From Rotaria socialis (lineage: Eukaryota), in NCBI GenBank assembly GCA_905331295.1, contig CAJNYD010000013.1:206763-270762 (forward strand): 64,000 nucleotides of DNA, written 5' to 3'. The translations under genes were made by a program, and so were the position numbers. Numbering within the stretch: position 1 is the first letter of the stretch; each line of letters opens with the position of its first letter. The notes below the pieces were generated by a model, which saw only the letters and a program-made list of their open reading frames with translations, made no database searches and had not been told where the DNA came from. This document shows positions 15,680 through 39,252 of the stretch, piece by piece.

Positions 15680-17220
15680 CAACGATTTCTTGCATTTGAG
15701 AAGCAAAGTTAAAAATTTGTTTTTTTCCTATTGAAGAAAAACAAAATTTTAATTTGTGTCTTTAACTAAGGAAGTAAATTTGACGGTAATGAGAAGTCTT
15801 GTGAAGTTCATTGTTGTTCACGCTAACACATTTAATGACTCTCTCTTTTTTTAGACTGCATTAAAAAAACTTAGTTTTAACACGCTCGAAAACAAAAGAT
15901 TAGAGAATCTGCCAATGTTAAACTGTGCTCAACCGTTTTAGGTAGCTCTTTTTTTTCACAAACGGCATAGGCGTGGGCAAAACGCGATGGGAGATAATAT
16001 GGCTATTTTATTTTCACTATTGTTCAAAACCAATGACAACTTATTACAATTAAATACATCATTTGATGGAATATATCGTAGATTTTCTTTTTCTAGGATT
16101 ATCTAAATAAGTCATCAATGGCATGCTATTTCCATTTTCTAATCACATAAAATCGGACTAAACTTCATTATTTATATTTATATACTTATAGCATTGTTAT
16201 CTGACTTAAATTTTTCGCAACATTACGAACAGATAATTATAAATTGAAGTTTTGTTTTTGACACAAGATAAATTTGTGTGGATAAAATGTGCAAACGATG
16301 TAGAAAAAAAAATTTCTTTTTCTTTTTCAAAGAAACTTTGATCCAGAACATGACTATGCTTGAATGAGAGCAATCGGTGCATTAAAAAAAGTCTGAGTCA
16401 AGGCATTGACATTATATAAATAATCAATTTTAATATTATATTCCAAAGAATAGAATGCCTTACTAGGTAAAGAAAACGAACTAGATAATTCTACTGTAAA
16501 CAAATGATAAACATAAATTTCATTGCCCTATTTCTACAATGAAGATAAAAAAGAATAACAAAGCAATAAATTCAAAATAATAAAACAACATTTCTATCTA
16601 TATTGTATGTGTGTGTGTACACTAATCTGCATAGTCTCTTGCATCTTGTTACGTTTTCTTTTGTAATAAATGATGTATATTTAAATAAATACAAAAGGTA
16701 ACATGCTGGATGAATAACAAATCAGCCATTAGCAACATCAAATGGAGTAATTCGAAGTCATAGAAACATAGTTTATGAAGAAGAAAAGAACATGTATGAT
16801 GTTTTTCATTTGTTAAAAATAAAACATGCAATGCAATAACAATAATAACAGAACGTCAACTTAAAAAAAGAGAAAAAAAAACGAACGGCAAGCTCCAAAT
16901 CGTGTCCGATTTTTTAAAGCAAAATGAAAGTTCTCGCTCTCATTTTTTTTCTCCTTCTCTTCTCGACGCCATTATAAACATTAGATTGGAAGAATAGCAA
17001 CCGTAATCTGACTCCAAACATCATCCGCTGTATCCACCTATCTGCTCTGCTTAATTAATCCATCTTTTCCCTCTTCTTCTCGTTCTATTTTTTTTCTTTT
17101 CTTCGCGCAGACTAATATTTGCATGGAGAAAAGAGAGACTTGACGGATTGACTCTTTTATCATCTAATCTTACATACTACAACTTCTTATTGTCTTTTAC
17201 ATCCAACTTATTAGTGAACA

Positions 17221-18382
17221 ATGGTAAGCACGTTAGAGAATTAAATGACATTGATATTCATAAAGACATTAATTTTTCCATTCATTCATTTTCAGAGCAC
17301 ATTTACCTCTACTAAAACTGAAGGTAAGATTATAATTAATAGAGAACATCTTTATATGTTGTTTTGTATTCCTATAGAATTTCGACATGTATTCGAATTA
17401 TTCGATAAGAATGGCGATGGAAGTATTGATGCCAATGAAATTGGGTTCGTATTAGGTTTTATTCATTGATGCGTAAATATCACAAGTAATATAATTAATA
17501 AATTATTCTTAATGGAAAAAGTTAATCAGCGGAAATTAAAATTTACTGGTACCTAGCTAATAACTGAATAAGGAACTATTTTGATTCTTTTTTTTGTTTT
17601 GTTTGTCCCCATCATAGAAAATCTGGCTAACGAGTTACTCTAGGTCTAGAAAAGAAAAGTATAAGTTTATAATAAGCTTTCGAAAGACTACGTTTGTCGT
17701 TCTCAAAGGTAAAATGAGTTATATTTGATTCATTACTATGGTTACTTTCATAAAACTATGAATGATTGTTGAAATTTCTAATTTGACATTTGTTTTTGTT
17801 TTAGACAAGTGATGCGATCATTAGGATTAAATCCAACGAATAAAGAAATTACAGATCTTATTGCTGAAGTAGATAAAAATGGTAGTACGATTTTGATTGA
17901 AGTCGATTTTATTTTAAAACTCTATATTTTATTAGGTAATCAACGATTGGATTTTCAAGAATTTATCTCATTTATGAGCAAACATTGGCATGAGCGTGAT
18001 CAAGAAGCTGAATTACGAGAAGCTTTTCGACTGTTCGATCGAGATAATTCAGGATATATAACTATTAGCGAATTGAAACAGGTTGAGTTTGATTTTTAAT
18101 TAAAATTCTATTAACATTTTTGGGTTTTCTCTTTTTCTTTTGAAGGTTATGTTAAATATGGGTGAAAAATTAAATCAAGAAGAATTAGAAGATATGATGC
18201 GAGAAGTAAGTTCATTCGTTGATTTGAATTATTTTACTTTCTTTTTCTTTTCAGGCCGATGTAAATAAAGATGGTAAACTTGATTATCAAGGTAAGAAAA
18301 GAATCATTGGTTGAACTTGTTTTTTTTTAAACACATGTTTTTGTTTACAGAATTTGTACAAAAACTTCTTTCGACGTCTTGA
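17221..18382 (+). CDS. Calmodulin-like 4 EF-hand protein
   Basis: ATG-only first coding exon (ATG|gtaag), then STFTSTKTE EFRHVFELFDKNGDGSIDANEIG QVMRSLGLNPT...VDKNGNQRLDFQEF...FDRDNSGYITISEL...ADVNKDGKLDYQEFVQKLLSTS*. Clearly diverged from canonical calmodulin. Confidence 0.9.
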
Positions 18383-18982
18383 ACAACGACTACTATCGTT
18401 CTTCTCTCTTTTTTTTGCTGTTCATGCTATTCTAACCAGCTTCTAACTAGAGCGCACGCCTATATGCATCCATTTTATCCGTTGTAGACTGATTTAAATA
18501 AACATGTTAAAGTAGATAAATTAACAAATGAAGGATTAATACAGCACATAGACTTAAGATTAATATTAGACGAAGTAAATATGGAACTTTGTTTACCAAA
18601 GTGTTAATGTAGACAAGCACGGATATATCTTAGGAAATACTCTATTTAGGGCAGACCTTGCTGCTTTTGTTTTTGTTCAATGTTACATATGCAAGATGGC
18701 AGTTAGACACTCGTATCTATTTGATTCTCAAAGTGTTCTATGCAACAAACATCGAGTTTCTGAATGAGCTGTCGACAGAAGAAGTAGAGTTAAAAAAATA
18801 TTCAGTTAGACAATGTCAATATTAAACCAATTAAATCGATGTGTACGTATGCAATTAAAGAATAAGATAATCGCCGAATGCAAAAAGAAATATTTACTAT
18901 TTTTATCAGCATAAAATTTATTGCAATGAAAAATAATTCTGTACAAACAAAAACAAAATTGTCAACAATTGATTTTTTTTTC

Positions 18983-20840
18983 TTATCTTGAACGTTCTAA
19001 TGTAAATAAACGAAGTATAACTGTATGACAGCTAAGTTCTTGAACAATTAATTTATCGTGTTCATGCATAATTTTCAATTGATTATGTTTATTATATTTT
19101 GTAAAATGAATATCTTGACGACAAATACCTATTGGATGTTCAATGACACGTATAATCGCTGTATTCGATGATTCCGATTCAAAAAGTAACGTTAATAAAT
19201 TGTTATAACGATCAAAACAATGATCAGTTAGAATTGCTGATGATAAATCGAGAACTTTTTGAGGTTTTGTTTGTCGTCCATAACGAGTCATTTGTCGGTC
19301 ACTTGCTGTTGGAATTGCAGCTGTGCCATCATCAACTGTATACAAGTGTTTAATAGATGTGGATTCATCAGGCACTAATTGCCAAACGTAGACCGTCGAT
19401 TCTCGAATATCAATTATGCAATCACGATTATTTTTTGTATCAATAAAATAGACTTGACTATTCGGTGATAAATTATCTGTCCATGATCGTTTTAAATGGC
19501 CATTTGATATCGGCGATGAATCATTATTTAAATCAAAAACAAAATAATCTTCATTGATACATGTAAGATAATGTTGTGTACTACAAAATGCATAGTCAAA
19601 TAGTGGACGTTCACCATTGAATGTATAGAGAACTGTTGGACAAGATGTAATTATAACATTGATCGGTAATGAGTCATCGGGATGTTCATGAATTGAATGT
19701 GATTTTACTGTATATTCATCAAGAATACTATGGAGAGAATAGAGATTACATCTATAATAAAAACAAATAATTATTCGAAAACAAGATTTTTAGAAATATG
19801 AGAATATTCAGCAGTGATATACACAGAAATCAAGCGCGATCGGATTGGCATATCTCTCTTTACAAGTCTTATTTCTGTGAAACTCGATAACCTAGTCTGA
19901 AATGACACGTTATCGCGTAGAAAAATAGCCTCTGTTTATATAGGGCAAACTAATCACAAGTATATCAGATTATAGAGAAATATTTATTTCTGTGTGTTAT
20001 TTGTCGTCATATTTGGTTCGCTAAAAGCTTCAGAGCAGCTTCTTTTTCTTCTGTTTTTAATCTCAACAAAACTAAGTGAAAAAAGTCATCTTTTTACCTA
20101 TTCCTTTGATTTTGTACAATAAGAAATTCGTGAGTTATAGCCGCTTGTTTAAGGTCGCTGCCAAAAATCTGAGGTTCAATTAGAAAAACATAGCTAAGCC
20201 AACGTGGCCATATTCTTAATAAAATAAATAAATGTGATCGTTGTTTATAACGTGTATGTATTGATATCATATGATATGCTTCATGGTATTCAAATGATTT
20301 TTCAAGAAATTTAACTGGTATTTCACATTGAAAACTAATACCATTGGATGGCATACGTAATTTTAATTTAAAATCATACAGAAATAAACGGTGATCAGCC
20401 GTCATCAATATAAAACCATCTTGTTTTGCACAATTTCGATTTTGAAAATTCGCGTATGTACATATACCAATAAACACAATTTTAACTGGAAATAAATCTT
20501 CAGCAATAAAAATTAAATTATTTTTATCGATGATATATAAACGAAGATTATTTAAGTGTAATGTTATCATATAGTGACCAAGAATAAACGTTGATTTGTT
20601 CGGTAATAGTTTATGTTCTGATGTTTGTTGAGACTCTTGAAATTCACATGAATAATTTGATTTAAGCAAACGTCGAAGGCATATTTCATTAATAAGTGTA
20701 GATGTCGATGATGAGCAATACGGACGGATATGGTATAAACATGCATACAATGATAATTTTTCAATAGGAATTCCTGATTGACGACTTATTAAACAACGTA
20801 TTCGATTACGAAATGAACGATTCGTATGAGATAATGACAT
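18983..20840 (-). CDS. DCAF17: DDB1- and CUL4-associated factor 17-like, two exons (20840-~20098; ~19753-18983)
   Basis: Segments FILMTADHRLF, LRIWPRWLSYVFLIEPQIFGSDLKQAAITHEFLIV, CNLYSLHSIL, LPINVIITSCPTVLY, MTRYGRQTK and FDRYNNLLTLL follow the DCAF17 pattern colinearly as recalled; ~500 aa. Confidence 0.65.
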
Positions 20841-20968
20841 AATCTAAAAAATAAAGTCATAAAAATACTCTTGATTGTAAATATTTATGTATATCGCATA
20901 TAATAAAATAGAAAAATGATTCCATATAAAATTTTCAGAATTTTTTTTTTCTTTGTATGATGAATGGT

Positions 20969-23063
20969 TTAATCATCGAAAGTTGAGAGTTCGGAGATTA
21001 TTGAACGATCTCTATTACCATTGATTTGTAGACGGCGTCGACGAAACTCTAAAACAACAAAGTTGATTGAGTTCTAATTAAAGAACACGATAAAGAAGTT
21101 GTAGATTTCAAGGTTTTTAAATTCGTGACAACGAAGACTTTATTGTTCAAAGTTGAGAGGAAACCGATCAAGTATTTATAGTGCCAAGGATATTGATTAC
21201 TATCTTCTATACTTTGAGTATTTAGAGTCTTTCAAAATATGAGCCGCTCATCGTAGTTATTGTAAAAATAATATATTACCCGGAATTCATATCTGTCTAA
21301 TTAAAACTCTCTGAACTATGTTTTGAAAAATTTGATTGATCTAATTTTTTATATTGAATGAGGCATTTCAAAGATTTTCGTAGCACAATTAGATTGCCTT
21401 CTATATTCAATGATTTTACGACGTCGTGGCTTGCTATCGTTGGTGGAGATAAATTCGTCGTTGTTGGTATTGCTGCATTTAATGATTTTGTTGACAACTT
21501 GAGGGTCGGTGTTCGTGCTGAATTCGTGGATGATGTTCCTCCTAAATTTGTCATTGATATTCGTTCTGGCTCTGATGCCGTGGTTGGTGGTTGATTCATG
21601 GACGGTGTTTGTCCTAAATTCGCCGCTGACACATTCGTGGTTACTGTTCTTTCTGAAGTTTCCTCTGGTTTTGTTGTTGTTGTTGTTGTTGGATTATTTG
21701 TTATTAAACTAGCAGCAATAGCTGCTTCCATCTGTTGTTGATTCCACTCCTCTATAGGATCCTTATAAAACGGCGAGTTTATACTTGGACTATTTTCCGG
21801 AGCATCACTGACCTTTTCAGTGGTCGTGTATGGAGTTAGATTATTCTTCTGAGTATCAAATCCAGTTAAAGATTGAATCATTTGTTGAGCACCACGGTTA
21901 TCAGTGAATGGGTCATTTTTATTTGATGATTGATGTACAATAGTCAGTGGACTAGAAAATAACATTCTTTGCTGTTCTCGTTCATTGGAATTAATCAATC
22001 CTGGATTATTAACAATGTATTGTGGTACGTGGTCAGCTGAGAGTACTGAAGAATTATGACGAGGGCGTGGATAGTCGCATTGTGGTATCGTTGATAGAGC
22101 AGTATTACTTTTTGATTGAACTGCCATTATTAAAACAGGATGAGCACGATCATGTTGAGGATGAGAAGGGTCTACATTTGTTGGCATAAGTTGATCAGCA
22201 ATATGTTTCGGTACATACTGTAATAGTTTTTGCTGAATCTGAGGATCATTTGGATTTTTTTGATACTCATTGTATACATGTTGTGGTACGGTTATTTTCT
22301 CGTTCATATAATTATTTAGATCATTGATATTATCTATTATTTTATTATCCATGATTAATTTAGGTAAATCTTTAATTAATAGTCCATATTCATGTGGACT
22401 AATAGGATTGGTTGTTAACTGTAGATCAGCTGTACAATCTTGTAAGTCTCCATGTACAATAAATACTGAACAATCATTTTCTGTTATGAAGTTTATATAC
22501 TGTACTAGAACAGAATTGGTAATTAACTTTGGCACATAATAAAAGGAATTTAAATCAAAGTAACTGATACCAAATCTTCTTATCGTAAACCAGTGTAAAC
22601 CCAAGTTACAAATATATGCTTTAATACTATGTGGTCTAGAACGTGCTTGTTTAGCAATATCCTCTTGACTTGTAAAAGATACTAATTCAAGGCTGACCGT
22701 TTTCAATGCTTCGTGCAATACCTGAATGCTAAAAAAACCTGTATCTATAAATATGAAAACAGGATCTATTAAGAAAAACAAAAATTTGCCCTTAATATTT
22801 AACAAACCATTCATATTCTTAGATACATCATATTGTGAGGATGTCAATACATTTCGTTCTTCATTATCAAGGTGCCTAGAAAGAACGAATTGATTTGTAG
22901 TCGATCAAAATTTTGATTATTTTGTTTTTTACTTAGCAATTTCAACTAATGAGTCAACTGAAAATACTGAGCTTTGTAAAAGATTATTTAATGCATGTTG
23001 ACCACAGAGAGCACTCTGCTGATGTTCATGATATATTCCTGTGCGCGCTGCAACTTTATCCAT
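20969..23063 (-). CDS. ATXN3: Ataxin-3-like Josephin deubiquitinase with UIM and VCP-binding-like motif
   Basis: MDKVAARTGIYHEHQQSALCGQHALNNLLQ (catalytic Cys), GFFSIQVL, ICNLGLHWFTIRR (His), FDLNS (Asn), VFIVHGDLQDCTAD; UIM-like QQQMEAAIAASL. The last exon 21048-20969 is inferred via a GC-AG intron; unspliced, the ORF ends at 21297. Confidence 0.88.
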
Positions 23064-23147
23064 CTACAAGTGAAAACCGTATATATTTATTTATTATTAA
23101 AAACAAAACGTGCAAAAAAGCAATTTATTAAAAATGAAAATGATCTG

Positions 23148-24502
23148 TCAATTATTCATGGAACGTGGAACAGAAGACGATCGATTGATACTACCAATAG
23201 ATAAACGAATAGACAATAGTGAAGAATCAATGGAAAAAAAAAAACATCAAACCTTTTGGTTTGTTGAATTGTACGTTTTTGATTTTGTGTTGCACTACGA
23301 ATACCAGCAACCGGATAGGGTTGTTGAGATTGTCCTGTTGAATTTTGTTGATTTGGCGCTTTAGAATTCCTAAAAAGAACAAAAGTACAAGTGAAAAAAT
23401 AAATAAATATTTGTTTTAATGTCATACTTTGACGCGGAACTTGCATTCTTTTGGAACACTTTTTCGATATTAAATGAAATTAAATTCAATGATGATATGT
23501 CATCGGCCGCACACGGAATTAATAAAGAAGGTGCAATGGTATAGTACCAATGTAATATATATGGTGGAATACCGGAATCAGTATATTTATATTGCCAATA
23601 AGGTAAACCACAATGAAGAAGTAGCAGACGATAATAATCAGTAAACGTAAAAGCAAGCCGATGAAAATGTAATGAACGATCCAAAAACCAAATACTCACA
23701 TCGCGACTCTATGTGAAAAACAGATTATAATTTAACTGCAAAGAATACGAGCAAGAGACTGGATAGGTAAAGTTTCGTACAGCCAGGATGATTTTTTTCT
23801 GATAGCTCTTATTTAAAAAATGAATTCAAATCTATCACTAAGACATACTGGATTATAGACAAGACAAACGCGTCCTTGTCCTTCGGAATTATCAAGTTCA
23901 AATATATGCCATGAACGAGAATTAAATCGAGGTGCGTCTAAAATGATGATGAATTCAGGAATGTAATTAAACAGAAAAACGAACATACCATTCTCAGAAA
24001 AATCATTCAATTCATCAACGGCTGTTTGCTTCGATCCAGCTGTAACTATTTTCGTTAAATCATTCAATGAATTTATATGCATTTTACCAATAAATGTTGG
24101 TATTGTGTCTTTAGAAATAAAAACAATTCATAAAATGAATTATTTTATCTGTGACATATGAATATTTACTATTATTTCCCGTTTTAACTGACCATCGTAT
24201 ATCAAGTCCATCTGACATTGCATAGAATTTTTTCAGATCATCAGGTAATTCGCATTCGTTTTTCTATAGGAAACCAGACTTCGATTTCATCCTATCAAAT
24301 GATGTATCTTACGTCTTCCCACTGTAGTAAAGCATCTGCTGAACATGTACTTTTATCTTTGACATGAACTCGATCGACTTCAGCTCGTTGTTCTATGCAG
24401 ACAGAGAGAAAGAGAAACAGGAATTATTTATGTATAAACATTGTACGAAGAAAAGTTTCCTGTACCTAAATAGTTAATTACGGATGTTGTTGCAGAATCC
24501 AT
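23148..24502 (-). CDS. TPGS2: Tubulin polyglutamylase complex subunit 2 (SMI1/KNR4-like)
   Basis: LLQWED|KNECELPDDLKKFYAMSDGLDIRWSVK...IGKMHINSLNDL...IFELD..GQGRVCLVY...IWFLDRSLHFHRLAFTFTDYYRLLLLHCGLPYWQYKYTDSGI. Confidence 0.85.
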
Positions 24503-24615
24503 ACATTATATTTCAATAGAAAATTATATTCATCTACAATAGGTTTTCTACATGAACAAACAATTTTTAACTAGTAAAGAAAATCACAAAAAAAAGGAAA
24601 ACAAATGAGCTCATT

Positions 24616-24987
24616 TCAGTTGGATGGCATCTTTTTGTTTGCTTTTTGAAAATTACTCATTTGTTCAAGAACTTCAGTTTCTCGACGAACTCGTTCTCGG
24701 TCTTTCAATTGTTGAATCAATGCATCCTATGAGAATGAAAATAGTGCTCGCTCGTGTTTCAAATATTAATCAATTCGTTTACGCGTTCTGGATTGGGTGG
24801 TGGGTAGAATCGTTTGCGAGCTTCAATGACTTGGTCTTTGAATATTTCAGGGCGACTGAATAGAAACATGGCCATAATAGGAAAACTCACATAGCACGCC
24901 ATGCCTGAATATAAAATGACAAATCTATGAAGATTCGTTGATCGTTTATGAATACTTACGAAAAACTTCTAATTTCCAGCCTCCCAT
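24616..24987 (-). CDS. PET100: PET100 cytochrome c oxidase assembly factor, 3 exons (absent from ORF track)
   Basis: Spliced MGGWKLEVFR|MACYVSFPIMAMFLFSRPEIFKDQVIEARKRFYPPPNPER|DALIQQLKDRERVRRETEVLEQMSNFQKANKKMPSN* matches the PET100 pattern MG(G)WKLEV.RM..Y..FP. Confidence 0.85.
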
Positions 24988-25482
24988 ATCTAAAACAATC
25001 ATTTAAATAGTTAAGATAATTATAATGCATTTGCTTGTGTTGTTTTTATTCAGAACGAAAGAAAAGAAATTAACAGAAATACGTAACGACAACAGCAGAA
25101 AAAAACGATGAAAATGACAAGATACTATACAACAATACCGAACAAAAAGGAATAATGAGATGAGTAAAATGACTTCCATCGAATGTTACTCTTAAATAAT
25201 GTTATATGCTTGGTTTTCACAAAATTTAACTTCTATGAAGATAACCCAGATCAATGGTGAATAATATACGAGAGAGAAAAGTAAAAGGCAAATGACTGAA
25301 TAAGTATACTTATTGATAAATAAATGAAGAATAAATTACATTAGTTGCAGCCCCAAGACAACACTCCCAAAAAAAAGAAGAAGAGACGAAAGAAATGAAT
25401 AAATAAATTGAAGCGTTCTTTTTTTTCTTTGTCTACAATCGATGTATTCATAAATTTTTGGATATATTTTTATTTTATTGCT

Positions 25483-26219
25483 TTATTTATTTGCTAAATC
25501 TTTTTTTTCTTGTGAACTATCACCAAAATTAAGATATTCATCGTGTGTTACACTCGTAGGCATTGTTCCGCTTGTAGCGCCTTGATTCATATCGTTCTTG
25601 TCGTTTCCATTAAAGTGCATTGCTGATTTTGATGATGTCATTTTTGATTTAACAGCAGTAACAGTTGAACCAAATGTATTCTCAAATGTTTTGAAATAAT
25701 TGGAATCTAAAAAAAATAACAAAAAAACATAAAAAATCAAATAAAAAATCAAATAAATTACTTCTAAAAGTTCCAAAACGTGATTTAACGGTTGTATTAA
25801 CCGTCTGTAAAGCTGGCGCAAGTTTATTCGATGCAGCATGGAATGTGTCAGCTGTCTTTTGATAGGCTGTTGATGCTTTAATATCGTGAACAGTTGCGTT
25901 CCAATCTTGTTTAAGTTCATCAACAAAGCCAACGCCTAATAATGTTTTGAGTTCATTTTCACGTTTTATTTTAGCAGTAAGTACTTGACGTAAGGTTACA
26001 ATTTCATCTTGAACTTTCATTAATTCTAAAAAACAAAGAAATATTTTGTTTTTCTTTCTCTAAAAACCTACCTTGTCGATAATCATCTTCTGGTTTGAAT
26101 CCATCCTCTTCTTGAAGTATAAATTGTTGTGGATTCGTATTTGTATCCGTAGATGTTGCATTCAAATCCGGATCAGTATCGAACGGTTTAGGCATTTTAG
26201 TCGATTGCTGATTATCCAT
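25483..26219 (-). CDS. TPD52: Tumor protein D52 family protein, 3 exons
   Basis: Coiled coil ELMKVQDEIVTLRQVLTAKIKRENELKTLLG and D52 motif ELKQDW..VHDIKASTAYQKT...FR|..YFKTFE. Confidence 0.88.
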
Positions 26220-26364
26220 TTGTATTTAATTATCAATAAAAACTATATCTATAGCAAAAACAAGATAAAACATATTTTATATTTATTCATACTCAATTAT
26301 CTGTTTACAATTATAGCAAAATAATTTTTAATTTACGATCTGAATGTTACAAGAAAAAAGCATT

Positions 26365-27935
26365 TTAGGTCGGCTCGTTAAAATAGTTTTTATATAACGT
26401 ATCAAGTTTTTCGCTGGCGAATCGACCGCCTTGAATAGAGTTCCATTTAGTACCGAATCGATCTTGTAGGCGATTGAAACTTTGCACGATTTCGTTGTCA
26501 GTTGCGTTACCATTTAAACCAAGTGCTGAGTGTAAATTTGATTGTTTCAGTATTCTTTGTACAAGTGCCTCATCATGAGCTGTATATTGATTTCCATCGG
26601 CCGTATGATAAATCGTTGATTGTTGCGTTTCATCCGTCGTAAATTGACCAGCTATGGTTGTTAAACCTTCGCCCATATTCCATAATTTTAATATCAATAA
26701 CTCTTCATCAATTACATTCGATGACATCATTGTATTTAGATTTAACCGAGCATAGACTAATCCATGTGTATCTAGCTGACGTTTGCATGTGCATTGTTCA
26801 CGATTAATTTGATACTCAGCCGATGATTCAAGGAAAATAGTAAAATTTTCAAACAGTTCATCATCACCATCATTTTGATAAACATCACCGAAATCACGTC
26901 GAATAAAATTTACATATGGACATAATTCTTTACATATGGAAAGTTCTTGATCATCAATAGAATTATTATTTAGTGGTTGCAGAATATTTTCATTTTTAAA
27001 ATCGAAACTAAGCGATGGAAATTGTTGACGTAATTCATATTCCATGGTAGCCATTTGATCCCTACGTGTACAAGGATTGTATTGAAATTGGATGCGAAAA
27101 TCAAATACATCATCGTAAGTTTTCGCTTTTAGAAATCGAGATGAACGACGATCACGGATAAAGTCTAAAATAGAAAAACAACTTCCGGTGGTGATATAAA
27201 CTCAAAGAAATAAGTCAGTTTAGCTATTCGTTTACCGATATTTGAAGTCCGTTGAAAATCTTTTGAAAATTCCACAATTGAATAATTCAATGCAGGATCA
27301 ATAGTACAAATATGAGTTTGATGATCATCTGTTTGTAAATAAACTCGGTAGACATGTTTCTGTTGATTCACTTTAAAACTAAATTTTTCGAGTTTCTCAA
27401 CGAATTCACGAGGTTGACTTATTGGTTTAACATTACAAAATGCCGATCGCAGAGTATCATCGCGTTGATTAGGATAATTTTCTCGTGGTAGATAATAATA
27501 TTTACCATTTGTTGTTGGAATTTTCTTTTTAATCAGATCTTGAATTTCATTAATTGAATACATATTGTTGAAGCGAAAACGTTTCGAAAAGAAATATGAA
27601 ACACCCATTCGAACACTAATCAGATACGATGATAGTTCATCGTAGGGTATTGATTTTAAAACTTCTTTGATACAATTTGAAAATTCTTCAGGTGTGCCAT
27701 TAGAGCCTGTTTCTTGGTTATTCTTCACTTGTGGTAAATGTAATTTATGTTGATGATGATTACGAGAACGAGTACCCAGATATTCATGAAAACCAATGTC
27801 GTTGGAACTTGTAGACAATGAATGTTCGAATAGAATAAAATAATTAGTCGGCGTCCGGCTGTCCGATAATTGACGTTGACTTTCTTGTTTTGTATCTGCT
27901 GAAGTGAATGCTTGAGAAGCATTATTATTTGCCAT
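26365..27935 (-). CDS. Uncharacterised ~500 aa protein with C-terminal degenerate J-domain; two exons (intron ~27236-27165)
   Basis: Two long ORFs joined by a GT-AG intron (...RTSNI|DFIRDRR...). The C-terminus RILKQSNLHSALGLNGNATDNEIVQSFNRLQDRFGTKWNSIQGGRFASEKLDTLY follows the DnaJ helix pattern without HPD. Confidence 0.75.
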
Positions 27936-28136
27936 TGTGCAAGTGATTGTCGCAGATTTACTTTATAACAATTTAACAGAAGACATGATTATCTTGAACA
28001 AACAAATTATTTATTAAAGGCACATCATCTATTTAAAATTCTCCTGAAAATTAAAACAAAAGATAGAATTTGAAATATTTTTATGTATAAAATTATTCGC
28101 ATCTATTTGACGTAGGACTATTTAAAAAGAAATCAT

Positions 28137-31059
28137 TTATAAAGCATCGTAATGAAAACGTTGTGATTGCACTTTTCGTTCACGATCATCCTCGATCTAG
28201 AATAAGACAGAAGTTTTCAGATAGCATCTAATTAAAATAGCTAACCTTTTCTCGATATTGCAATATAGCAAGTACACCTGATAGAACAACTAATGTCACA
28301 CTTAATGCGATACCTGTGTGTAAAATCATCCGACTAGGTGTTATGAATAGTTTACTATGCCATCTACAAGTAATTTATTTTTCATTCTGTATGTTTTTGT
28401 TTGTTGAAACTCACTTTTCTGGATTCGTTAATGGCGATGGTACAACAACGATTTGTGAATTCGGAATCATTTGTGTATATGTTCGAATTAATTGATTCTA
28501 TAGACAAAACATCGACGAATTTATATACATACGTATGTAGATATTCGTCATACAAACCGATTGACTATTCGGTGGGATAGCAACTGTAATTTTTTCGACG
28601 AAATTCGGTGTTGCACCAAGACCAATTATTACATAAGGCAATTCAAGGGTTAATTGACCCGATTGAGACATTTGAACAGCTAAAAATACGGATATAAAAG
28701 TTTGTTGCAAAAAAAACAAAAACAAAGCGTTAGTTCGAATTATTTCTAATTAGCTATTTTTAATGCTCGTATCATTCTCTACTTTCAAATCATACTGTAG
28801 ATTCATAATTGCAACTATTCTATAAAACAATAATACATAGTCTTGATTATCCAGGTAGTTTTATTTCATTTTGTCTAGTAAAATGAAATTTTCCCGTCTC
28901 TCTCTCTCTCCTATTGACATACCTGATAATTGAATCCAATTATCTTTAATGCCATCTAAAATTGTTATTGTTTCCATCTTAATTGATTGTCCAGGTTGAT
29001 CATTGCCGTAAGGCTGAAAGAGAAATTTGGTCGCAACTATTTTTTGTTCTGACAAAAATTTACTAACCAATTTACGTTGATGAGAACAAGTATCACACGA
29101 AAAAGTGCTAAGAACTAAAATGAATAAATTTTTAGAAAAAATATATAAATCTGTATCTTAATTTACCCATCACTTTAATAAAATGCACATCTTGAAAAAG
29201 AGAATTTTGAAAACCAATCAATTGAAAGTTCTGTTTTGAACTTCCTTGTAAAACGAGTAAATCTGGATAACCCTTTAGATAACGAAAAGCAAATAATTAA
29301 AATGATATTATTTTATCCGAGAAGAAATTTTACATCTTCCAAAACATCAAAGAAGACGGCAAGCGTTGTATTTGTTGCTGCTAAAACATAGATTTCATCT
29401 ATTTGAGGTGCAAATGTTCGATTGTAAGTACAATTTCCACTATTAGCATCACTACAAGCACGATTTTGAAGTATAATCGAAACAGTATTGCCATTTGAAC
29501 TAAAATTGGAGACAATTTCTTTATAGATCGTTCCTATTCATCGGTTTTTCACACTTTATAGATCTCAAGAGACCTTTCATCGTTAACTGTTATTATCATT
29601 CATCATTATCACGAAAAAAACTCATACCTGTTTTTCATAACGGCCACCATGTCTGGAAAACCATCAAGATTATAGTCGGCTACTTTAATGCTAATAGGTA
29701 TTTGATCGAATGGCGGTGGAAATTCATTCTTCGAAGGAAATCTTAAGTCTTTGCCGAAATCAATTGGTAATTGATACCACTAAAATAATCGTATTTATTG
29801 AATTGAAGTTTCATTCTGATTGAAATTTTTTACATACTTTATTATTATCGCGTACATAAATTCGACTATCTGAGCAATCGAAATTCATACAAACTGGTAG
29901 AATATGTTCTAACTCTCCATCAGCATCTAACAAAACAAAAAACATGATATATTATTAGTATGAAATATATTTTATTGTTTACCTATATCAGCAAATGTTG
30001 ATAGATGACAAATAGCAACATCGTCTGGCGGATCGTATTCAACAATTAATGTCATTTTAGTGATTGGTAATTCGTAAAGACGAAATTTTGGTTTATTATT
30101 ATGATTAATTGTTAAAAATAAATCTAATATGGAAAAATAAAAACAATCCTAATTGATGTTTAGAATAAGTCTAACCTGCAACAAGATCATGATTAAGATC
30201 AACTGTAGCTTGTGTGGAACTTGGAAAAAGATCATCGACATTATTTAACGTTTCGACATTATATACAGTACGATTTTTGCTTCAAAAGAAAAAAAATAGA
30301 AAATTATTTCTGAGATAAAAATTATTCTTACAAAATTAAACAAGCTGGTTTAAAATTAATTTGATCATTACTTATCATTCCTAACAATTCAACATAGGAG
30401 TCACCATTTGCACTGACGAGAATACGAATGATTCATTTTGAAGTAGATTAAAACACGATCAACTTACTCAAGAGTTGTTGGTATTGTTTGAAATGAATAA
30501 GTTATTGGCTGAAGATCACCTAGAAATAAAGAATCTTTCGATTTTCTAGAGAACCAATAGAAGAACAAAAACTGAATTACTACGTACTTAATTTGACTCG
30601 ATCGCCCCATAAGAAACCGCCACTATAGAAGCTTTCATCGGATTTTGTTTTATAAATGATAAATAGATCTAGTTTACTGTCGCCATCAAAATCAGCTGCT
30701 AACGCATCATAAATGATTCCTCTAAGTTCATGAAAAACAATAGATCAATAAAATTTATTTTTCATGTTCACATACGTGATATTCGCTATATACTGTACTT
30801 TCGATGTTGGCGAACGATCATCATTAAGCATTACTACAATACTATTAGCTTTTGTATTTCGACAAAAAATATCAACAATTTTATCGGCATTAAAATCACC
30901 AAATGCTAATGGTATACAATCATCGATAGCATATTTTTTATTATTACTAAAATGTCCAACAAATACATTTTCTTTTGTAATTTTTTTTGTCTGACCATTT
31001 ATTGCATGAATAATAAAACAAATGATCAATAAATAACGAAATGTATTCTCATAATTCAT
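28137..31059 (-). CDS. ITFG1: T-cell immunomodulatory protein / LINKIN (FG-GAP repeat type I membrane protein)
   Basis: Signal peptide; PLAFGDFNADKIVDIF; ADFDGDSKLD; ADYNLDGFPD; LELPYVIIGLGATPNFVE; MIPNSQIVVVPSP; TM segment; C-terminus DDRERKVQSQRFHYDAL*. Confidence 0.92.
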
Positions 31060-31336
31060 ATCATCTAGAAAAACATGAAATTCATGATTGATTTTTCCGA
31101 TCGTCGTATGAATTTAAGACATCTTTTAAGTTGGAAAAAAAAGTAAATACTGTCTGCTAAAAACAGTCAAACTTCTATGTGTACATCTGGCTGGCTAGCA
31201 GCCTTTGTCCAATGATATTCTTCATCTTGATTATTTATTTATTATACTCATCGATTCAATTGAGTAAACAAGTGACATCTACCTAGTCGATTAGCGTATA
31301 ATAAATATTTATTTTATTATCACAAATCTCAAATTA

Positions 31337-32065
31337 TCAAGCCATCAACGTCTTGACGAGATCGTCGAACAGATCAAAACTCATTTTTCCATCATTGTTT
31401 TTCAGTTTGTACATTGCGTACCAACTTTCGTCAGCTTCTGGATGTGGTCCAACCATTCCGACACGTCCTTTTCCATTATTTTGCACAGCTGCTGCAATCT
31501 CACCATTGGTGTATACGGCAAGGATTTCTGCAGGTGCTGCTGTTCGATCGATCATTAAACGAGTACCATCTTGAAAGTAGACATGTCTCAGTATTCCTCG
31601 CCAATACAGAGGTACCACAGTATCGATTTCACTAGTGATAAGAGCGCCTTTTGATGTAATGTATTGGTCGGTTTGTCCTCTACCTGGAAGTAGATCAAAA
31701 CCGGGTAAAGTACCAGCCAAATAAGCACCAAGACAGGTACCAAGATATCTTCCACCATTACGAACATAATCACGAAGAGGTGACGCATATCGACGGACAT
31801 GAGGCCACGTTTCATCTAGATCACCTCCACCTGGTTGTACGTATAACTGTGCCATAGATAATGTATCCTTATTTACATCCAGTTGTTCCTTAGGTCCAAC
31901 ATAGATAATTTGATATTTCGATCGTAAACGGTCGGCGATCGTCTCTGAACAACCATGGCACGCAGCAGGACCTCGGTAAATCAAAGCAATAGGGAGGGCA
32001 AGAGTGCCAAGTTCGAGCAAACTTGCTATAAAAAGTAACCCAAGAAGAAAAATATAGCAGTGCAT
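31337..32065 (-). CDS. Intronless secreted BPL_N / class I glutamine amidotransferase-like protein, HGT candidate
   Basis: ALIYRGPAAC.GC, YVQPGGGD, GGRYLGTCLGAYLAG (nucleophile Cys), YFQDG, GRVGMVGPHPEA (His-Pro-Glu). The hydrophobic leader starts at Met 32065 (ORF track starts at 32125). No introns and visibly more GC-rich than its flanks. Confidence 0.85.
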   Translation of the reverse strand: MHCYIFLLGLLFIASLLELGTLALPIALIYRGPAACHGCSETIADRLRSKYQIIYVGPKEQLDVNKDTLSMAQLYVQPGGGDLDETWPHVRRYASPLRDYVRNGGRYLGTCLGAYLAGTLPGFDLLPGRGQTDQYITSKGALITSEIDTVVPLYWRGILRHVYFQDGTRLMIDRTAAPAEILAVYTNGEIAAAVQNNGKGRVGMVGPHPEADESWYAMYKLKNNDGKMSFDLFDDLVKTLMA

Positions 32066-32428
32066 ATTCGTCAGAAGAAAATACCCAAATGCTTGTCGTC
32101 TATCTTTTTCTTTAAAGTGCATCACGAGATTAATTTCTTCTCATTTTTCAATTAAAAAGAGATGCATCCTCTTCTTGTTTTGTTTTTCATCGCATCTACG
32201 GAATATGGTAACCGGTGTCATTTCTTCAAAAACAATCAAAAAGAAAATGACGTATACCCTATATCTTGGATATTCTGTTCTACATCAGAACTATATGAGT
32301 ATGACATGAGCCTGATATTCATTCAATTTATTATTATACTGCATGTGCATCGTTTGAGATCTATGTTAATAAGTACATGAGTCACGGATTCCTGATCTCG
32401 AGCGCAAATTTTAAGTAAAATTGTATTT

Positions 32429-33887
32429 TCAATCAATGGAATTTATTCTAGAAAATCGTTGAACACGGTTATTCCAAAAATCGACGACATAAAGATTACC
32501 GTGCCGATCGAGAGACAAACCATCGAGGGAGTTGAACTGATTTGCTCCTGGTCCTAGACCGTTTCCACCTACAATTACAGTGCCTTGTTTCGCTCCTTGA
32601 GTCCAACGCATGACACGATGATTCGCCGAGTCTGCTACATAGAGTGTACCCAATGTATCGATGAAGAGTCCTTTAGGACCATTCAATTGTGTCAGAGCAT
32701 TTCCTCTGCCTTGACCTCCAGCGACGACGATGCCTTCTTTTGCACCTTTAGTCCATTTCATCACACGATTATTTCGTTCGTCTGATACGTAGACATTCTG
32801 TTGTTGATCGACAACGAGATGTCTCCGCTCTTTCAGTTGACTGAGACCATTTCCACCAACCACGAGAGTGCCATTCTTCTCGCCCAATTGATATCGTCTT
32901 ACTTCATCTTTCTCAACGTCAGAGACGTAGAAATATCTCTGATCATCCATAGCCAATCCTCGGCAGTGAATGTTGTCAATGAGGATTTCTCCTTGTGTTG
33001 TGTCACTACGACGAGACCATCGTACGACTCGTGGATTCCCATATTCGCAAATAATGAGACTATCCGACACTTTGTCAATCAATACATCAGTTGGGCGATT
33101 CAATTGATGCAATCCGTTTCCACGGCCATTGCCACCAACAACTACTTCTCCATTCGTCGCATTGCCATTCTTCCATTGAATGATGCGATCATTACCCAAG
33201 TCAGCAATGACCACTGTTTGATCATCATCAACGAAGAGACCATGAGGGCGGTTGAGCTGATTGGTGGCACTACCTTCCCCATTGCCTCCAGCAACAGTCA
33301 CTCCGTTTTGTATCCATTTGGCATTTGCAGGAATATTAACTACAAGCGAGATAAATTAAAGGGTGTGGGTGTGGTGTGGATGGTAGTGAGTGTCTTGTTG
33401 TCCATGCATCTCCACCACGCGCTCAGTATTATGTTCTCTTACTTGTTATCGGTGGACAGAATTGTTTATTGTAATTCGGTACTGGATAGCAAACAGGAAT
33501 ATCACGACATTGAGGATGATGAACACATATATGATCAGACTGACTGCAATTATTCGTTGAATGGTCGCACGATGTCAACTCTGAACATGTCACTGTGTAT
33601 CGATCAGTACAAATTCCAGTGTTAGAAGCACCAGGTACATGGAAACAGGCGCATGCCGAATTGCGTGAGCATCGATCATATTGAGACATACCATCACATG
33701 ATTGTGATTTGACTCGAACTATCGATATAGTAAATAAATTACAAGAAATCTATTATGAAAACAAGCATCTAACCTGTGAAGCTAAAAAAAAGAAAGATCT
33801 TTCAATGCTCGATAAGTAAGAAAGTCATAGATTTTTGGTTTACCTGAATAGAACGAGTATGAAGCAATCCAGAAGTATTGAAAACAT
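32429..33887 (-). CDS. Secreted Cys-rich + NHL-repeat beta-propeller protein
   Basis: Leader exon MFSILLDCFILVLF; Cys-rich exon ~33440-33720; then NIPANAKWIQNGVTVAGGNG..QLNRPHGLFVD and repeated P.G/D...D..G.LYVAD..N.RV NHL units ending NNRVQRF. Confidence 0.88.
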
Positions 33888-34401
33888 TGATGCGGTTAAA
33901 ATGAGATAAAATAATGGTATTAATCATTCTTATATCTAATCAATAGATGCTCGTTTTTAGATTCGCTGTTATGTAGCTCTTCGATAATTAGAAATTTGAT
34001 ATTGCTCCAACTCTTACTTAAGCATTTCATTCTTCTCCGTAAAAGAAAATAATCCTTAAAGAAGAAAACAAAAACAAATGTAATGAAAGAAATAACCGAT
34101 TCTTTTCTATTGCTATTTCTTCGTTGATGTATAAAAAAAATGGGAAAAGCCATGAACGAATTGTTCTGTAATTTCGAGACCAACTGTTGCCCATATTGAT
34201 AATACAATCAGATGACATTTTTGTTCATTATTACTGTCAAATAAAATCCAGCGATACCTACGATAGGAGATTGCGTGTTAATTGAATCGAGTAATTTGAT
34301 CTTCATCATTAATTTTTCATATTATAAAGTCGAGCCTGAAAAGAAACCATTTTAATCCCTTGCAAATTTTTCGAATTAATAGACTGATTGTAGAGTCCTC
34401 T

Positions 34402-39041: not shown

Positions 39042-39152
39042 ATGATAATATATAGTTCAGAGGACTCAGAAGATGTACAGATAACCAAAAAATATCAGCC
39101 GTTAAAAAACTTACAAGGCTGAAAGGACTAGCTAGGAATAAAATATAGAGCA

Positions 39153-39252
39153 NNNNNNNNNNNNNNNNNNNNNNNNNNNNNNNNNNNNNNNNNNNNNNNN
39201 NNNNNNNNNNNNNNNNNNNNNNNNNNNNNNNNNNNNNNNNNNNNNNNNNNNN
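39153..39252. other. Assembly gap (100 N)
   Basis: Run of N. Confidence 1.

What the first reader, a model, noticed from the sequence alone, without database searches (positions are those of the whole stretch)
18983..28139. Candidate polycistronic, trans-spliced operon of co-oriented housekeeping genes
Seen: seven minus-strand genes in a row with stop-to-start spacers of about 201 (ITFG1 to J-like), 145 (to TPD52), 495 (to PET100), 113 (to TPGS2), 84 (to ATXN3) and 128 bp (to DCAF17). Several starts have a pyrimidine tract plus AG immediately upstream with no evident donor: ttttcacttgtag|ATG (ATXN3), ttgttttag|at ATG (PET100), ttattttttag|att ATG (DCAF17). The 84-bp TPGS2-ATXN3 spacer contains AATAAA, a U-rich stretch and then the acceptor. 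Established: spliced-leader trans-splicing is reported in bdelloid rotifers, and nematode operons have this ~100-bp layout. Inference: this is an operon; I am not aware of operons being well characterised in rotifers.
Basis: partly seen in the sequence, partly recalled or inferred. Interest (0 to 1): 0.78.

Follow-up and report, generated by a model that had tools for sequence, protein, structure and literature searches.

The report
Leader-spliced gene row, likely rotifer operon
In a bdelloid rotifer (most likely Rotaria socialis), six genes in a row start their messages at a leader-splicing site lying from 0 to at most about 100 bases after the end of the previous gene's message, so the row is likely cut out of one shared transcript, which would be the first RNA-backed operon in rotifers.

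Summary
Observation confirmed. Seven minus-strand genes lie head to tail, with stop-to-start spacers of 201, 145, 495, 113, 84 and 128 nt.

They also carry it at TPD52 (26250/49) and TPGS2 (24535/34). The J-like gene's contigs start at an AG (27994/93) after unprinted extra letters.

The real gaps are much smaller than the spacers suggest. Poly(A) tails or contig ends of the upstream mRNAs lie 0-31 nt from the next acceptor at four junctions. One upstream contig runs 28 nt past the next acceptor. One gap is at most 100 nt.

This is the layout of Ciona operons and C. elegans SL1-type operons, not the ~100-nt SL2 layout.

Neighbour pairs are kept in Adineta, in other Rotaria and in two metagenome relatives.

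Co-transcription itself is not shown: there is no precursor RNA and no TSS data. Eight literature searches found no primary report of rotifer operons. This scan noted an RNA-less candidate in Adineta steineri before.

Verdict: trans-splicing shown; operon likely (about 0.65); new member of a known kind.

The parts
27997..31066 (-). ITFG1-like gene (name weakly supported). ATG at 31059, stop at 28139-28137, AATAAA at 28015-28010, poly(A) added at about 27997. Its own 5' end is not mapped; a candidate acceptor ttttctag| lies at 31066/65.
   Evidence: ORFs. Sequence. FG-GAP_3 E 9.6e-4, below the cut-off. A 20-letter T run lies before 27997 in X5 (table 7). Signal position.
26260..27994 (-). 'J-like' gene. 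Acceptor AG at 27994/93. The 57-nt 5'UTR holds a 7-codon uORF. CDS is 27935-27236 plus 27164-26365. AATAAA at 26287-26282. Contig 3' ends at 26260 (X1) and 26262 (X5).
   Evidence: Model (intron GTAAAC..TTTTAG). table 8: X1 and X5 contigs align from 27994 after 11 and 15 unaligned letters (letters not printed), and the X2 contig starts exactly at 27994. No Pfam hit. Relatives are L001 and L002.
24991..26250 (-). TPD52 gene. SL acceptor AG at 26250/49, 29-nt 5'UTR. CDS is 26219-26072, 26025-25762 and 25706-25483. The 3'UTR is about 460-490 nt. AATAAA at 25050-25045. Poly(A) at 25023 (X5) and at 24991 (X1).
   Evidence: SL letters at 26250 in X1 (18) and X5 (19). T runs lie before 24991 (X1, 19 letters) and before 25023 (X5, 19 letters). 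Introns are removed in 4 of 4 runs. Pfam TPD52 8.8e-22. Model.
24506..24991 (-). PET100 gene. SL acceptor AG at 24991/90, 2-nt 5'UTR. CDS is 24987-24960, 24904-24783 and 24726-24616. Contig 3' ends at 24609 (X2), 24588 (X1) and 24506 (X5).
   Evidence: SL letters (20) at 24991 in X1 and X5. Pfam Pet100 8.7e-11. Model. The X5 contig reaches 24506.
23082..24535 (-). TPGS2 gene. SL acceptor AG at 24535/34. The 31-nt 5'UTR begins with a 6-codon uORF. The CDS has 8 exons from 24502 to 23148. AATAAA at 23095-23090 and 23091-23086. The X1 contig ends at 23082.
   Evidence: 11 SL letters at 24535 in X1. By my arithmetic on its pieces, the X5 contig starts at 24535. All 7 introns are confirmed by X1 joints. 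The 286-aa model is 285/286 identical to P0001, named Rotaria socialis.
20946..23065 (-). Josephin-domain (ataxin-3-like) gene. SL acceptor AG at 23065/64 directly abuts the ATG at 23063. Exons are 23063-22933, 22875-22808 and 22744-21297 (long form), or the gene continues into a last exon 21048-20969. The X5 contig ends at 20946 inside an A10 run.
   Evidence: 15 SL letters at 23065 in X5, with one extra letter against the consensus. Joints 22932/22874 and 22808/22744, and a joint 22698 to about 21048. Pfam Josephin 7.1e-24 and 6e-8. Models.
18973..20845 (-). DCAF17 gene, last of the run. SL acceptor AG at 20845/44, 3-nt 5'UTR. CDS is 20840-20098 plus 19751-18983. It converges on a plus-strand EF-hand gene whose poly(A) is at 18528.
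   Evidence: 11 SL letters at 20845 in X5. X5 contig pieces are 20845-20098 and 19751-19068; the X1 contig runs to 18973. PF15802 on 4 of 4 full-length relatives. Model.

Best explanation
The seven co-oriented genes are likely one SL-resolved operon, or most of one; the trans-splicing and the abutting mRNA ends are shown, while the shared precursor is inferred.

Shown:
- Each of the six downstream genes begins at a YAG acceptor.
- For five of them, contigs carry the rotifer spliced leader at that acceptor.
- The previous gene's mRNA ends 0-31 nt upstream of the acceptor at four junctions. At one junction an upstream contig runs 28 nt past the acceptor. At one junction the gap is at most 100 nt.

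Inferred:
- RNA polymerase II would start upstream of the ITFG1-like gene, or further up, and run through the whole row.
- At each boundary the precursor would either be cleaved and polyadenylated just before the acceptor, mostly guided by AATAAA 15-53 nt upstream, giving the upstream mRNA.
- Or it would be trans-spliced to the SL at the AG, giving the capped downstream mRNA.
- Where the poly(A) site sits on or within a few nucleotides of the AG (ITFG1-like to J-like; TPD52 to PET100), the two outcomes would be mutually exclusive for one precursor molecule. This was proposed for Ciona operons and C. elegans SL1-type operons.
- One SL serves both these genes and a neighbouring gene that has its own upstream 5' region, so no operon-specific leader is involved.
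For: 1. SL at the acceptors.
- reverse-complement SL letters at 24991 (20 letters, X1 and X5) and at 26250 (18 in X1, 19 in X5).
- at 24535 (11 letters, X1), 23065 (15, X5) and 20845 (11, X5).
- That makes 5 of 6 downstream genes with printed SL letters.
- The sixth (J-like) has contigs of 3 runs whose aligned part begins at 27994, the A of an AG, two of them after 11 and 15 extra letters (table 8).
- The letters match the Rotifera consensus in PMC3795323 Table 1. They are absent from the window.

2. Abutting 3' ends.
- A T run (poly(A) on the minus strand) lies before 27997 in X5, 2 nt from AG 27994/93.
- T runs lie before 24991 in X1 (on the A of AG 24991/90) and before 25023 in X5 (31 nt upstream).
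- Contig ends without a printed tail: J-like at 26260 and 26262, which is 9-11 nt before AG 26250/49 and 19-21 nt after AATAAA. TPGS2 at 23082, 16 nt before AG 23065/64.
- The sequence downstream of the two tailed sites is not A-rich, so internal priming is unlikely.

3. Overlap. The X5 PET100 contig reaches 24506, 28 nt past the TPGS2 acceptor. By my arithmetic it overlaps the X5 TPGS2 contig (start 24535) by exactly 30 nt. Neighbouring pieces of a k=31 assembly graph would do this (k is recalled).

4. No cis-splice into the acceptors among the joints listed (13 listed, no cut note; 15 of 46 shown).

5. Conservation.
- 2 of 15 TPGS2 relatives (both Adineta ricciae) are gene models fusing Pet100 and TPGS2.
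- 2 of 4 DCAF17 relatives (Rotaria magnacalcarata, R. sordida) fuse Josephin and DCAF17. In P0023 the join uses the DCAF17 acceptor.
- Two metagenome loci, 59-64% identical in the J-like protein, keep J-like stop, AATAAA, 27 nt, YAG, 25 or 32 nt, TPD52 ATG.

6. The Ciona argument applies (PMC1488885, passages and section 14). With no intercistronic DNA, making either mRNA end requires transcription across the boundary.
Against: - No polycistronic precursor is shown. No contig bridges a junction with 31 or more letters on both sides, and the tool warns that contigs cannot show a single transcript.
- There are no TSS or cap data, so promoters inside upstream genes are not excluded.
- The TPD52 3'UTR (about 460-490 nt) is long enough to hold an internal promoter for PET100.
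- Contig word depths differ up to about 25-fold between neighbours (J-like 7.8 against TPD52 200 in X1; 11.3 against 115 in X5). The tool says depths must not rank genes, and mutually exclusive processing could give such ratios from one promoter.
- The SL alone is not diagnostic. The plus-strand EF-hand gene also takes the SL at 17109 in X1. Contigs of X2 and X3, and by my arithmetic from table 3 also X5, run 120-170 nt upstream of that acceptor.
- The ATXN3 to DCAF17 junction is unresolved. The upstream contig ends in an A10 run 100 nt before the acceptor, and only CATAAA is nearby.
- PET100 to TPGS2 has no canonical signal.
- The first gene and its promoter are not identified.
- The runs are labelled 'RNA?' (a guess), although their contigs lack introns and carry poly(A) and SL.
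- X5 is a relative (90-97% alike), not the window's own strain.
Confidence: 0.65

Rival explanations
1. The genes are independent but overlapping transcription units in a locally very compact stretch. Each downstream gene would have its own promoter and capped start inside the 3' part of the preceding gene. The short outron would be removed by ordinary SL trans-splicing. The closeness of poly(A) sites and acceptors would be mere packing.
For: - SL trans-splicing in this animal also serves a gene with its own upstream 5' region. The EF-hand gene takes the SL at 17109 in X1, but contigs of X2, X3 and (by my arithmetic) X5 continue upstream to about 16989-16941.
- Contig depths of neighbours differ widely (a weak point by the tool's own caution).
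- No precursor contig is seen.
- The long TPD52 3'UTR could house a promoter.
Against: - It needs six consecutive promoters embedded in coding exons or 3'UTRs.
- At two junctions the poly(A) site is 0-2 nt from the acceptor, and at one an upstream contig runs past it. Both transcripts must therefore cross the boundary anyway.
- The pairings PET100-TPGS2, Josephin-DCAF17 and J-like-TPD52 persist in other bdelloid genera or species, with the same signal-to-acceptor spacing at one of them. This fits constraint on a shared unit.
Confidence: 0.2
2. A hybrid operon. The row would be co-transcribed, but one or more internal promoters, most plausibly ahead of TPD52 or inside its long 3'UTR, would add transcripts for the downstream genes, as in C. 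elegans hybrid operons (recalled). This is a sub-case of the best explanation, not exclusive of it.
For: - There is a jump in contig depth from J-like to TPD52 and PET100 in both X1 and X5 (weak).
- The TPD52 3'UTR is unusually long, about 460-490 nt, against roughly 30-140 nt for the other five genes whose 3' ends could be placed, taking poly(A) sites or contig ends as lower bounds (my arithmetic).
- TPD52 has two poly(A) sites, 25023 and 24991.
Against: Nothing direct. Depth is not a licensed measure here. Mutually exclusive processing or differing mRNA stability explain the same ratios without extra promoters.
Confidence: 0.3

Closest known systems
Ciona intestinalis SL-resolved operons (Satou et al. 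2006, PMC1488885; passages and section 14 read)
   Same: - Co-oriented, functionally unrelated genes.
- One SL for operon and non-operon genes.
- The downstream acceptor lies directly against the upstream poly(A) site, with little or no intercistronic DNA. Here the gap is 0-2 nt at two junctions.
- The upstream 3' ends show microheterogeneity. TPD52 ends at 24991 and at 25023, much like Ciona's alternative sites 2-67 nt upstream.
   Different: - In most Ciona operons poly(A) is added to the G of the acceptor AG, and AATAAA is missing in 16 of 18. Here the tails start 1-4 nt before that G, and canonical AATAAA lies 15-53 nt upstream at 4 of 6 junctions.
- Ciona has cDNA clones of dicistronic precursors. 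Here none is shown.
C. elegans SL1-type operons (described in PMC1488885's discussion; primary paper recalled, not read)
   Same: There is no intercistronic sequence. The general SL, not a special one, resolves them. The upstream cistron has a canonical AATAAA. Processing of one precursor is predicted to be mutually exclusive.
   Different: They are a rare minority class in a different phylum, and mostly two-gene units. Here it is a run of seven genes with several such junctions.
C. elegans SL2-type operons
   Same: Co-oriented housekeeping-type genes whose downstream genes are trans-spliced. Gene order is conserved among relatives.
   Different: - SL2-type operons have about 100-nt intercistronic regions and a dedicated SL2 (PMC1488885 passages).
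- Here the gaps are about 0-31 nt at four junctions.
- The same SL is seen at five cluster genes and at the EF-hand gene outside the cluster. Only a single-letter variant appears at one gene.
Chaetognath operons (Paraspadella gotoi, PMC12460157; passages read)
   Same: This is the nearest phylum with operons (Gnathifera, as that paper groups them). The leaders are not operon-specific. Operons there are defined as genes less than 250 bp apart with an SL, a bar this cluster passes. The genes are housekeeping-type.
   Different: The SL sequence is different. Those operons were called genome-wide with long-read transcripts. Here there is one locus and contigs only.

Membership tests
SL-resolved metazoan operon | Two or more genes on one strand with very short distances between them | tested here: met
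   Seven genes in 12.1 kb on the minus strand. Stop-to-ATG spacers are 84-495 nt. From mRNA end to next acceptor the gap is about 0-31 nt at 4 junctions, an overlap at 1, and at most 100 nt at 1.
SL-resolved metazoan operon | All downstream genes receive a spliced leader in trans | tested here: met
   SL letters are printed for 5 of 6 downstream genes. For the sixth, contigs of 3 runs begin at the A of AG 27994/93, two with unprinted extra letters. The SL is not encoded in the window.
SL-resolved metazoan operon | A polycistronic precursor RNA spanning two or more genes | tested here: inconclusive
   No contig bridges a junction with 31 or more letters on each side. One X5 contig crosses the TPGS2 acceptor by 28 nt. 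Contigs cannot show a single transcript. Raw or long reads were not available.
SL-resolved metazoan operon | One promoter at the head, with no capped starts of their own for downstream genes | not testable with these tools
   No CAGE, TSS or chromatin data. The 5' end of the ITFG1-like gene and the status of the two further upstream minus-strand genes (BPL_N, NHL) are unknown.
SL-resolved metazoan operon | Gene order conserved among relatives beyond chance | tested here: met
   3 of 6 junctions have evidence. PET100-TPGS2 in Adineta ricciae: fused models, 2 of 15 hits and 1 of 8. Josephin-DCAF17 in two other Rotaria species: 2 of 4 hits. J-like-TPD52 in 2 metagenome loci. The other three junctions were not examined in relatives.
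Operons lacking intercistronic DNA (Ciona type; C. elegans SL1 type) | The upstream poly(A) site directly adjoins the downstream trans-splice acceptor | tested here: met
   Tails start at 27997 against AG 27994/93 (X5) and at 24991 against AG 24991/90 (X1). Two further junctions are within 9-16 nt, judged by contig ends without tails.
C. elegans SL2-type operon | A specialised leader for downstream genes and an intercistronic region of about 100 nt | tested here: not met
   The same leader is seen at the cluster genes and at the EF-hand gene at 17109. Gaps are mostly 31 nt or less.

The most novel reading that the evidence does not exclude
Bdelloid rotifers have true SL-resolved operons of the type without intercistronic DNA, kept across bdelloid families (Philodinidae and Adinetidae). 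At several boundaries one precursor can yield either the upstream or the downstream mRNA but not both. This would add the phylum Rotifera to the operon-bearing animals. It would also mean that many fused gene models in public bdelloid annotations are mis-called operons.
Probability: 0.6. Interest if true: 0.72.

Novelty: new member of a known kind. Interest (0 to 1): 0.62.

Why it matters
Reviews state that operons have not been reported in rotifers (PMC7986045, passage) or list them as not determined (PMC2481426, table row). Eight full-text searches here found no primary report.

A rotifer operon would be a new data point for two questions. One is whether SL trans-splicing and operons arise together repeatedly in animals. 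The other is whether the near-absence of intercistronic DNA seen in tunicates, and in a minor nematode class, is a recurrent solution.

Chaetognaths, grouped with rotifers in Gnathifera, have many operons (PMC12460157). The question of shared or convergent origin therefore becomes testable.

There is also a practical side. Public bdelloid gene models fuse neighbours at exactly these junctions, so annotation pipelines for these genomes need SL-aware splitting.

Tried and rejected
- The look-up of sequencing runs: no RNA holder listed. All six rows are 'RNA?' guesses. I treated X1, X2, X3 and X5 as transcript contigs only because introns are removed and poly(A) and SL letters are present.
- No whole genome is held for the window, so SL RNA genes, genome-wide operon statistics and the second genomic copy could not be examined.
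- Parts without contig cover carry no weight: 21099-21364 in X1 and X5, much of ATXN3 and the DCAF17 5' end in X1, 26251-26259, and 23066-23081.
- Ranking genes by contig depth is disallowed by the tool, so it is mentioned only as a weak point.
- Bridging contigs: none meets the 31-letter bar. One search's tables were cut (35 loose ends, 31 joints and 200 pieces not shown), so bridging or cis-spliced forms could be hidden there.
- Odd long loose ends and a 6177-nt joint with a 22-letter side in X2 and X3, and an 87-letter loose end at 23006 in X1, were set aside as paralogue or chimeric contigs without further test.
- Pfam found nothing for the J-like exons, the TPGS2 exon or the DCAF17 exons. 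Atlas look-ups gave only weak leads to DCAF17 (0.90) and SMI1/KNR4 or TPGS2 (0.83-0.84).
- Rfam and tRNA scans of the window: nothing.
- Earlier findings by place: none.
- Pouchkina-Stantcheva & Tunnacliffe 2005 is not held. Its content is known to me only through citing papers and recall. No supplements were read.
- The nematode-style reading (about 100-nt spacer, U-rich element, special SL) was rejected on the mapped ends.


Full report
**What is there**

The window is AT-rich (about 31% G+C) eukaryotic DNA with short introns. Between 31059 and 18983 seven genes lie head to tail on the minus strand. I built exon models from open frames, GT..AG boundaries and the introns that transcript contigs remove.

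Gene identities:
- Pfam on single exons confirms TPD52, Pet100 and Josephin.
- Full-length relatives confirm TPGS2: PF09346, with a JGI name 'tubulin polyglutamylase complex subunit 2'.
- Full-length relatives confirm DCAF17: PF15802 in 4 of 4.
- 'ITFG1' rests on a sub-threshold FG-GAP hit, and 'J-like' on nothing.

My 286-residue TPGS2 model is 285/286 identical to a protein that NCBI names as from Rotaria socialis. The window is therefore most likely that bdelloid or a very close strain.

**RNA evidence**

One search for public runs returned six holders, all labelled 'RNA?'. I laid four of them on 16500-31500 and two on 20700-24660.

Their contigs behave as transcripts:
- Introns are removed at GT..AG (CT..AC on the plus strand).
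- They carry A or T runs at their ends.
- They carry loose letters that are the reverse complement of the rotifer spliced leader. That leader's 23-letter consensus is printed in PMC3795323 Table 1.

The leader is not encoded in the window (0 matches at up to 3 mismatches).

Leader letters stand at these places:

| Acceptor | Gene | Letters and run |
|---|---|---|
| 24991 | PET100 | 20 in X1, 20 in X5 |
| 26250 | TPD52 | 18 in X1, 19 in X5 |
| 24535 | TPGS2 | 11 in X1 |
| 23065 | Josephin gene | 15 in X5, one extra letter |
| 20845 | DCAF17 | 11 in X5 |

In every case the aligned part ends on the A of a genomic AG. This is expected because the leader itself ends in AG.

For the J-like gene, contigs of X1, X2 and X5 all begin their aligned part at 27994, again the A of an AG. 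X1 and X5 have 11 and 15 unaligned letters that the cut table did not print (table 8).

No listed joint cis-splices into any of them. One search lists 13 joints with no cut note; one search shows 15 of 46.

**Where the upstream messages end**

| Junction | Upstream end | Distance to next acceptor |
|---|---|---|
| ITFG1-like to J-like | 20-letter T run before 27997 (X5) | 2 nt; 12 nt after AATAAA |
| J-like to TPD52 | contigs stop at 26260 (X1) and 26262 (X5) | 9-11 nt; 19-21 nt after AATAAA |
| TPD52 to PET100 | tails at 25023 (X5) and 24991 (X1) | 31 nt and 0 nt |
| PET100 to TPGS2 | contigs stop at 24609 (X2), 24588 (X1), 24506 (X5) | X5 runs 28 nt past the acceptor |
| TPGS2 to Josephin gene | X1 contig stops at 23082 | 16 nt |
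| Josephin gene to DCAF17 | X5 contig stops at 20946 in an A10 run | 100 nt; unresolved |

- The TPD52 3'UTR fills the whole '495-nt spacer'.
- The X1 tail at 24991 sits on the A of the PET100 acceptor.
- The X5 PET100 contig overlaps the X5 TPGS2 contig, which by my arithmetic starts at 24535, by exactly 30 nt. Neighbouring pieces of a k=31 assembly graph would show this (the k value is recalled).
- AATAAA lies 9-65 nt upstream of 4 of the 6 acceptors, against 10.6% of comparable AG sites in the window.

**Reading**

Once the real ends are used, the intercistronic distance is close to zero at most junctions. It is the layout described for Ciona and for the minor SL1-type class of C. elegans (PMC1488885, passages and section 14).

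The Ciona authors' argument carries over. If the upstream poly(A) site and the downstream acceptor touch, making either end requires transcription across the boundary. A promoter for the downstream gene would then have to lie inside the upstream gene.

Where the tail starts 0-2 nt before the AG, cleavage removes the branch region and acceptor from the downstream fragment. A given precursor would then give one mRNA or the other (inferred).

The presence of AATAAA resembles the SL1-type operons more than Ciona, where 16 of 18 lack it.

The same leader also caps the plus-strand EF-hand gene at 17109 in X1. Contigs of X2 and X3, and by my arithmetic X5, run 120-170 nt upstream of that acceptor. 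There is thus no sign of an operon-specific leader, and SL addition alone does not prove an operon.

**Conservation**

- In Adineta ricciae, a different bdelloid family, 2 of 15 TPGS2 relatives are gene models carrying Pet100 plus the TPGS2 domain. The sequence shows the PET100 protein joined to TPGS2 exon 2.
- In Rotaria magnacalcarata and R. sordida, 2 of 4 DCAF17 relatives are Josephin plus DCAF17 fusions. In P0023 the join runs into 'IMSL...', that is, through the DCAF17 acceptor.
- Such fusions are what gene predictors make of tightly packed co-oriented genes. They show adjacency, not biology.
- A metagenome scan with the J-like exon gave 2 confirmed loci of 84 pattern matches, 59-64% identical. 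Both keep J-like stop, AATAAA, exactly 27 nt, a pyrimidine-rich AG, 25 or 32 nt, then the TPD52 start MDNQQSTKMPKPFD. The spacer sequence itself has diverged.

Three of six junctions therefore have evidence of conservation. The other three were not examined.

**What is not shown**

- No precursor RNA spanning two genes was seen. Contigs could not prove one in any case.
- No cap or TSS data exist here.
- The head of the unit is unknown. Two more minus-strand genes lie upstream: a BPL_N-domain ORF at 31340-32140 and an NHL-repeat gene. The BPL_N mRNA seems to end near 31220, about 155 nt before a candidate ITFG1 acceptor.
- Neighbouring contigs differ up to 25-fold in word depth. The tool forbids ranking by depth, and exclusive processing could give such ratios, but an internal promoter (hybrid operon) remains possible, for example ahead of TPD52 or within its long 3'UTR.

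I therefore put the operon at about 0.65, fully independent overlapping units at about 0.2, and a hybrid form as a sub-case at about 0.3.

**Literature and novelty**

- PMC2481426 (table row) lists rotifer operons as 'ND'.
- PMC12460157 (passages) names rotifers loosely among lineages with 'trans-splicing and operonic transcription', but cites no rotifer operon study.
- Eight full-text searches found no primary report.
- The original SL paper of 2005 is not held. No supplements were read.
- This scan earlier noted a three-gene candidate in Adineta steineri without RNA data (e1-2593265). I did not test that note.

The present locus adds RNA-level proof of SL use and of abutting ends. I rate it a new member of a known kind (SL-resolved operons without intercistronic DNA), interest 0.62. 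It still awaits junction-spanning reads and TSS mapping.

Noticed in passing
window 20946-23065 (joint 22698 to about 21048): In X5 the best-covered Josephin-gene contig (366 letters, depth 21.4) splices from a donor inside the Josephin-coding exon (GT at 22697/96) to the last exon near 21048. This skips 1.65 kb. In the window's frame it would stop after about 98 codons. Contigs over the long exon have depth 3.6-5.2. It may be an alternative or non-productive isoform.
   Followed up: partly
window 27992-27936 and 24533-24503: Two leader-spliced 5'UTRs hold upstream ORFs. J-like has ATG at 27986 followed by 7 codons. In TPGS2 the first base after the leader starts a 6-codon uORF, and a second ATG at 24506 overlaps the main start. 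By contrast the ATXN3-like, PET100 and DCAF17 starts lie 0, 2 and 3 nt after the leader.
   Followed up: no
window 16941-18528 (+): A plus-strand EF-hand (calmodulin-like) gene converges on the cluster. It takes the SL at 17109 in X1. Contigs of X2, X3 and (by my arithmetic from table 3) X5 continue 120-170 nt upstream of that acceptor, so leader-spliced and unspliced 5' ends seem to coexist. Its poly(A) is at 18528.
   Followed up: partly
window 31340-34200 (-): Two more minus-strand genes lie upstream of the run. One is a single-exon BPL_N-domain ORF (E 1.1e-14). The other is an NHL-repeat gene (E 6e-23), which lies in a block of higher G+C (39.6% at 32001-34000, against about 31% elsewhere). 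They may extend the co-oriented run to nine genes and could be of foreign origin. Neither point was tested.
   Followed up: partly
P0008, P0009 (Adineta ricciae); P0023 (Rotaria magnacalcarata); P0024 (R. sordida): Public gene models fuse PET100 with TPGS2 and the Josephin gene with DCAF17. These are probably annotation artefacts of the tight packing, and P0023 uses the trans-splice acceptor as a cis acceptor. Similar fusions may be common in bdelloid annotations.
   Followed up: partly
window 23065 (X5 loose end): The leader fragment on the Josephin gene in X5 has one extra letter compared with the consensus. It is either a variant SL gene or a contig error.
   Followed up: no
window about 39130-39260: A run of N (X in all frames of the ORF list) marks an assembly gap.
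   Followed up: no
window 24991-25482: The TPD52 3'UTR is about 460-490 nt, several times longer than the other 3'UTRs of the row. It ends at two sites, 25023 in X5 and 24991 in X1. In X1 its distal part is a separate contig of about half the depth of the coding part (105.6 against 200.4), which hints at another, proximal end near 25296.
   Followed up: no
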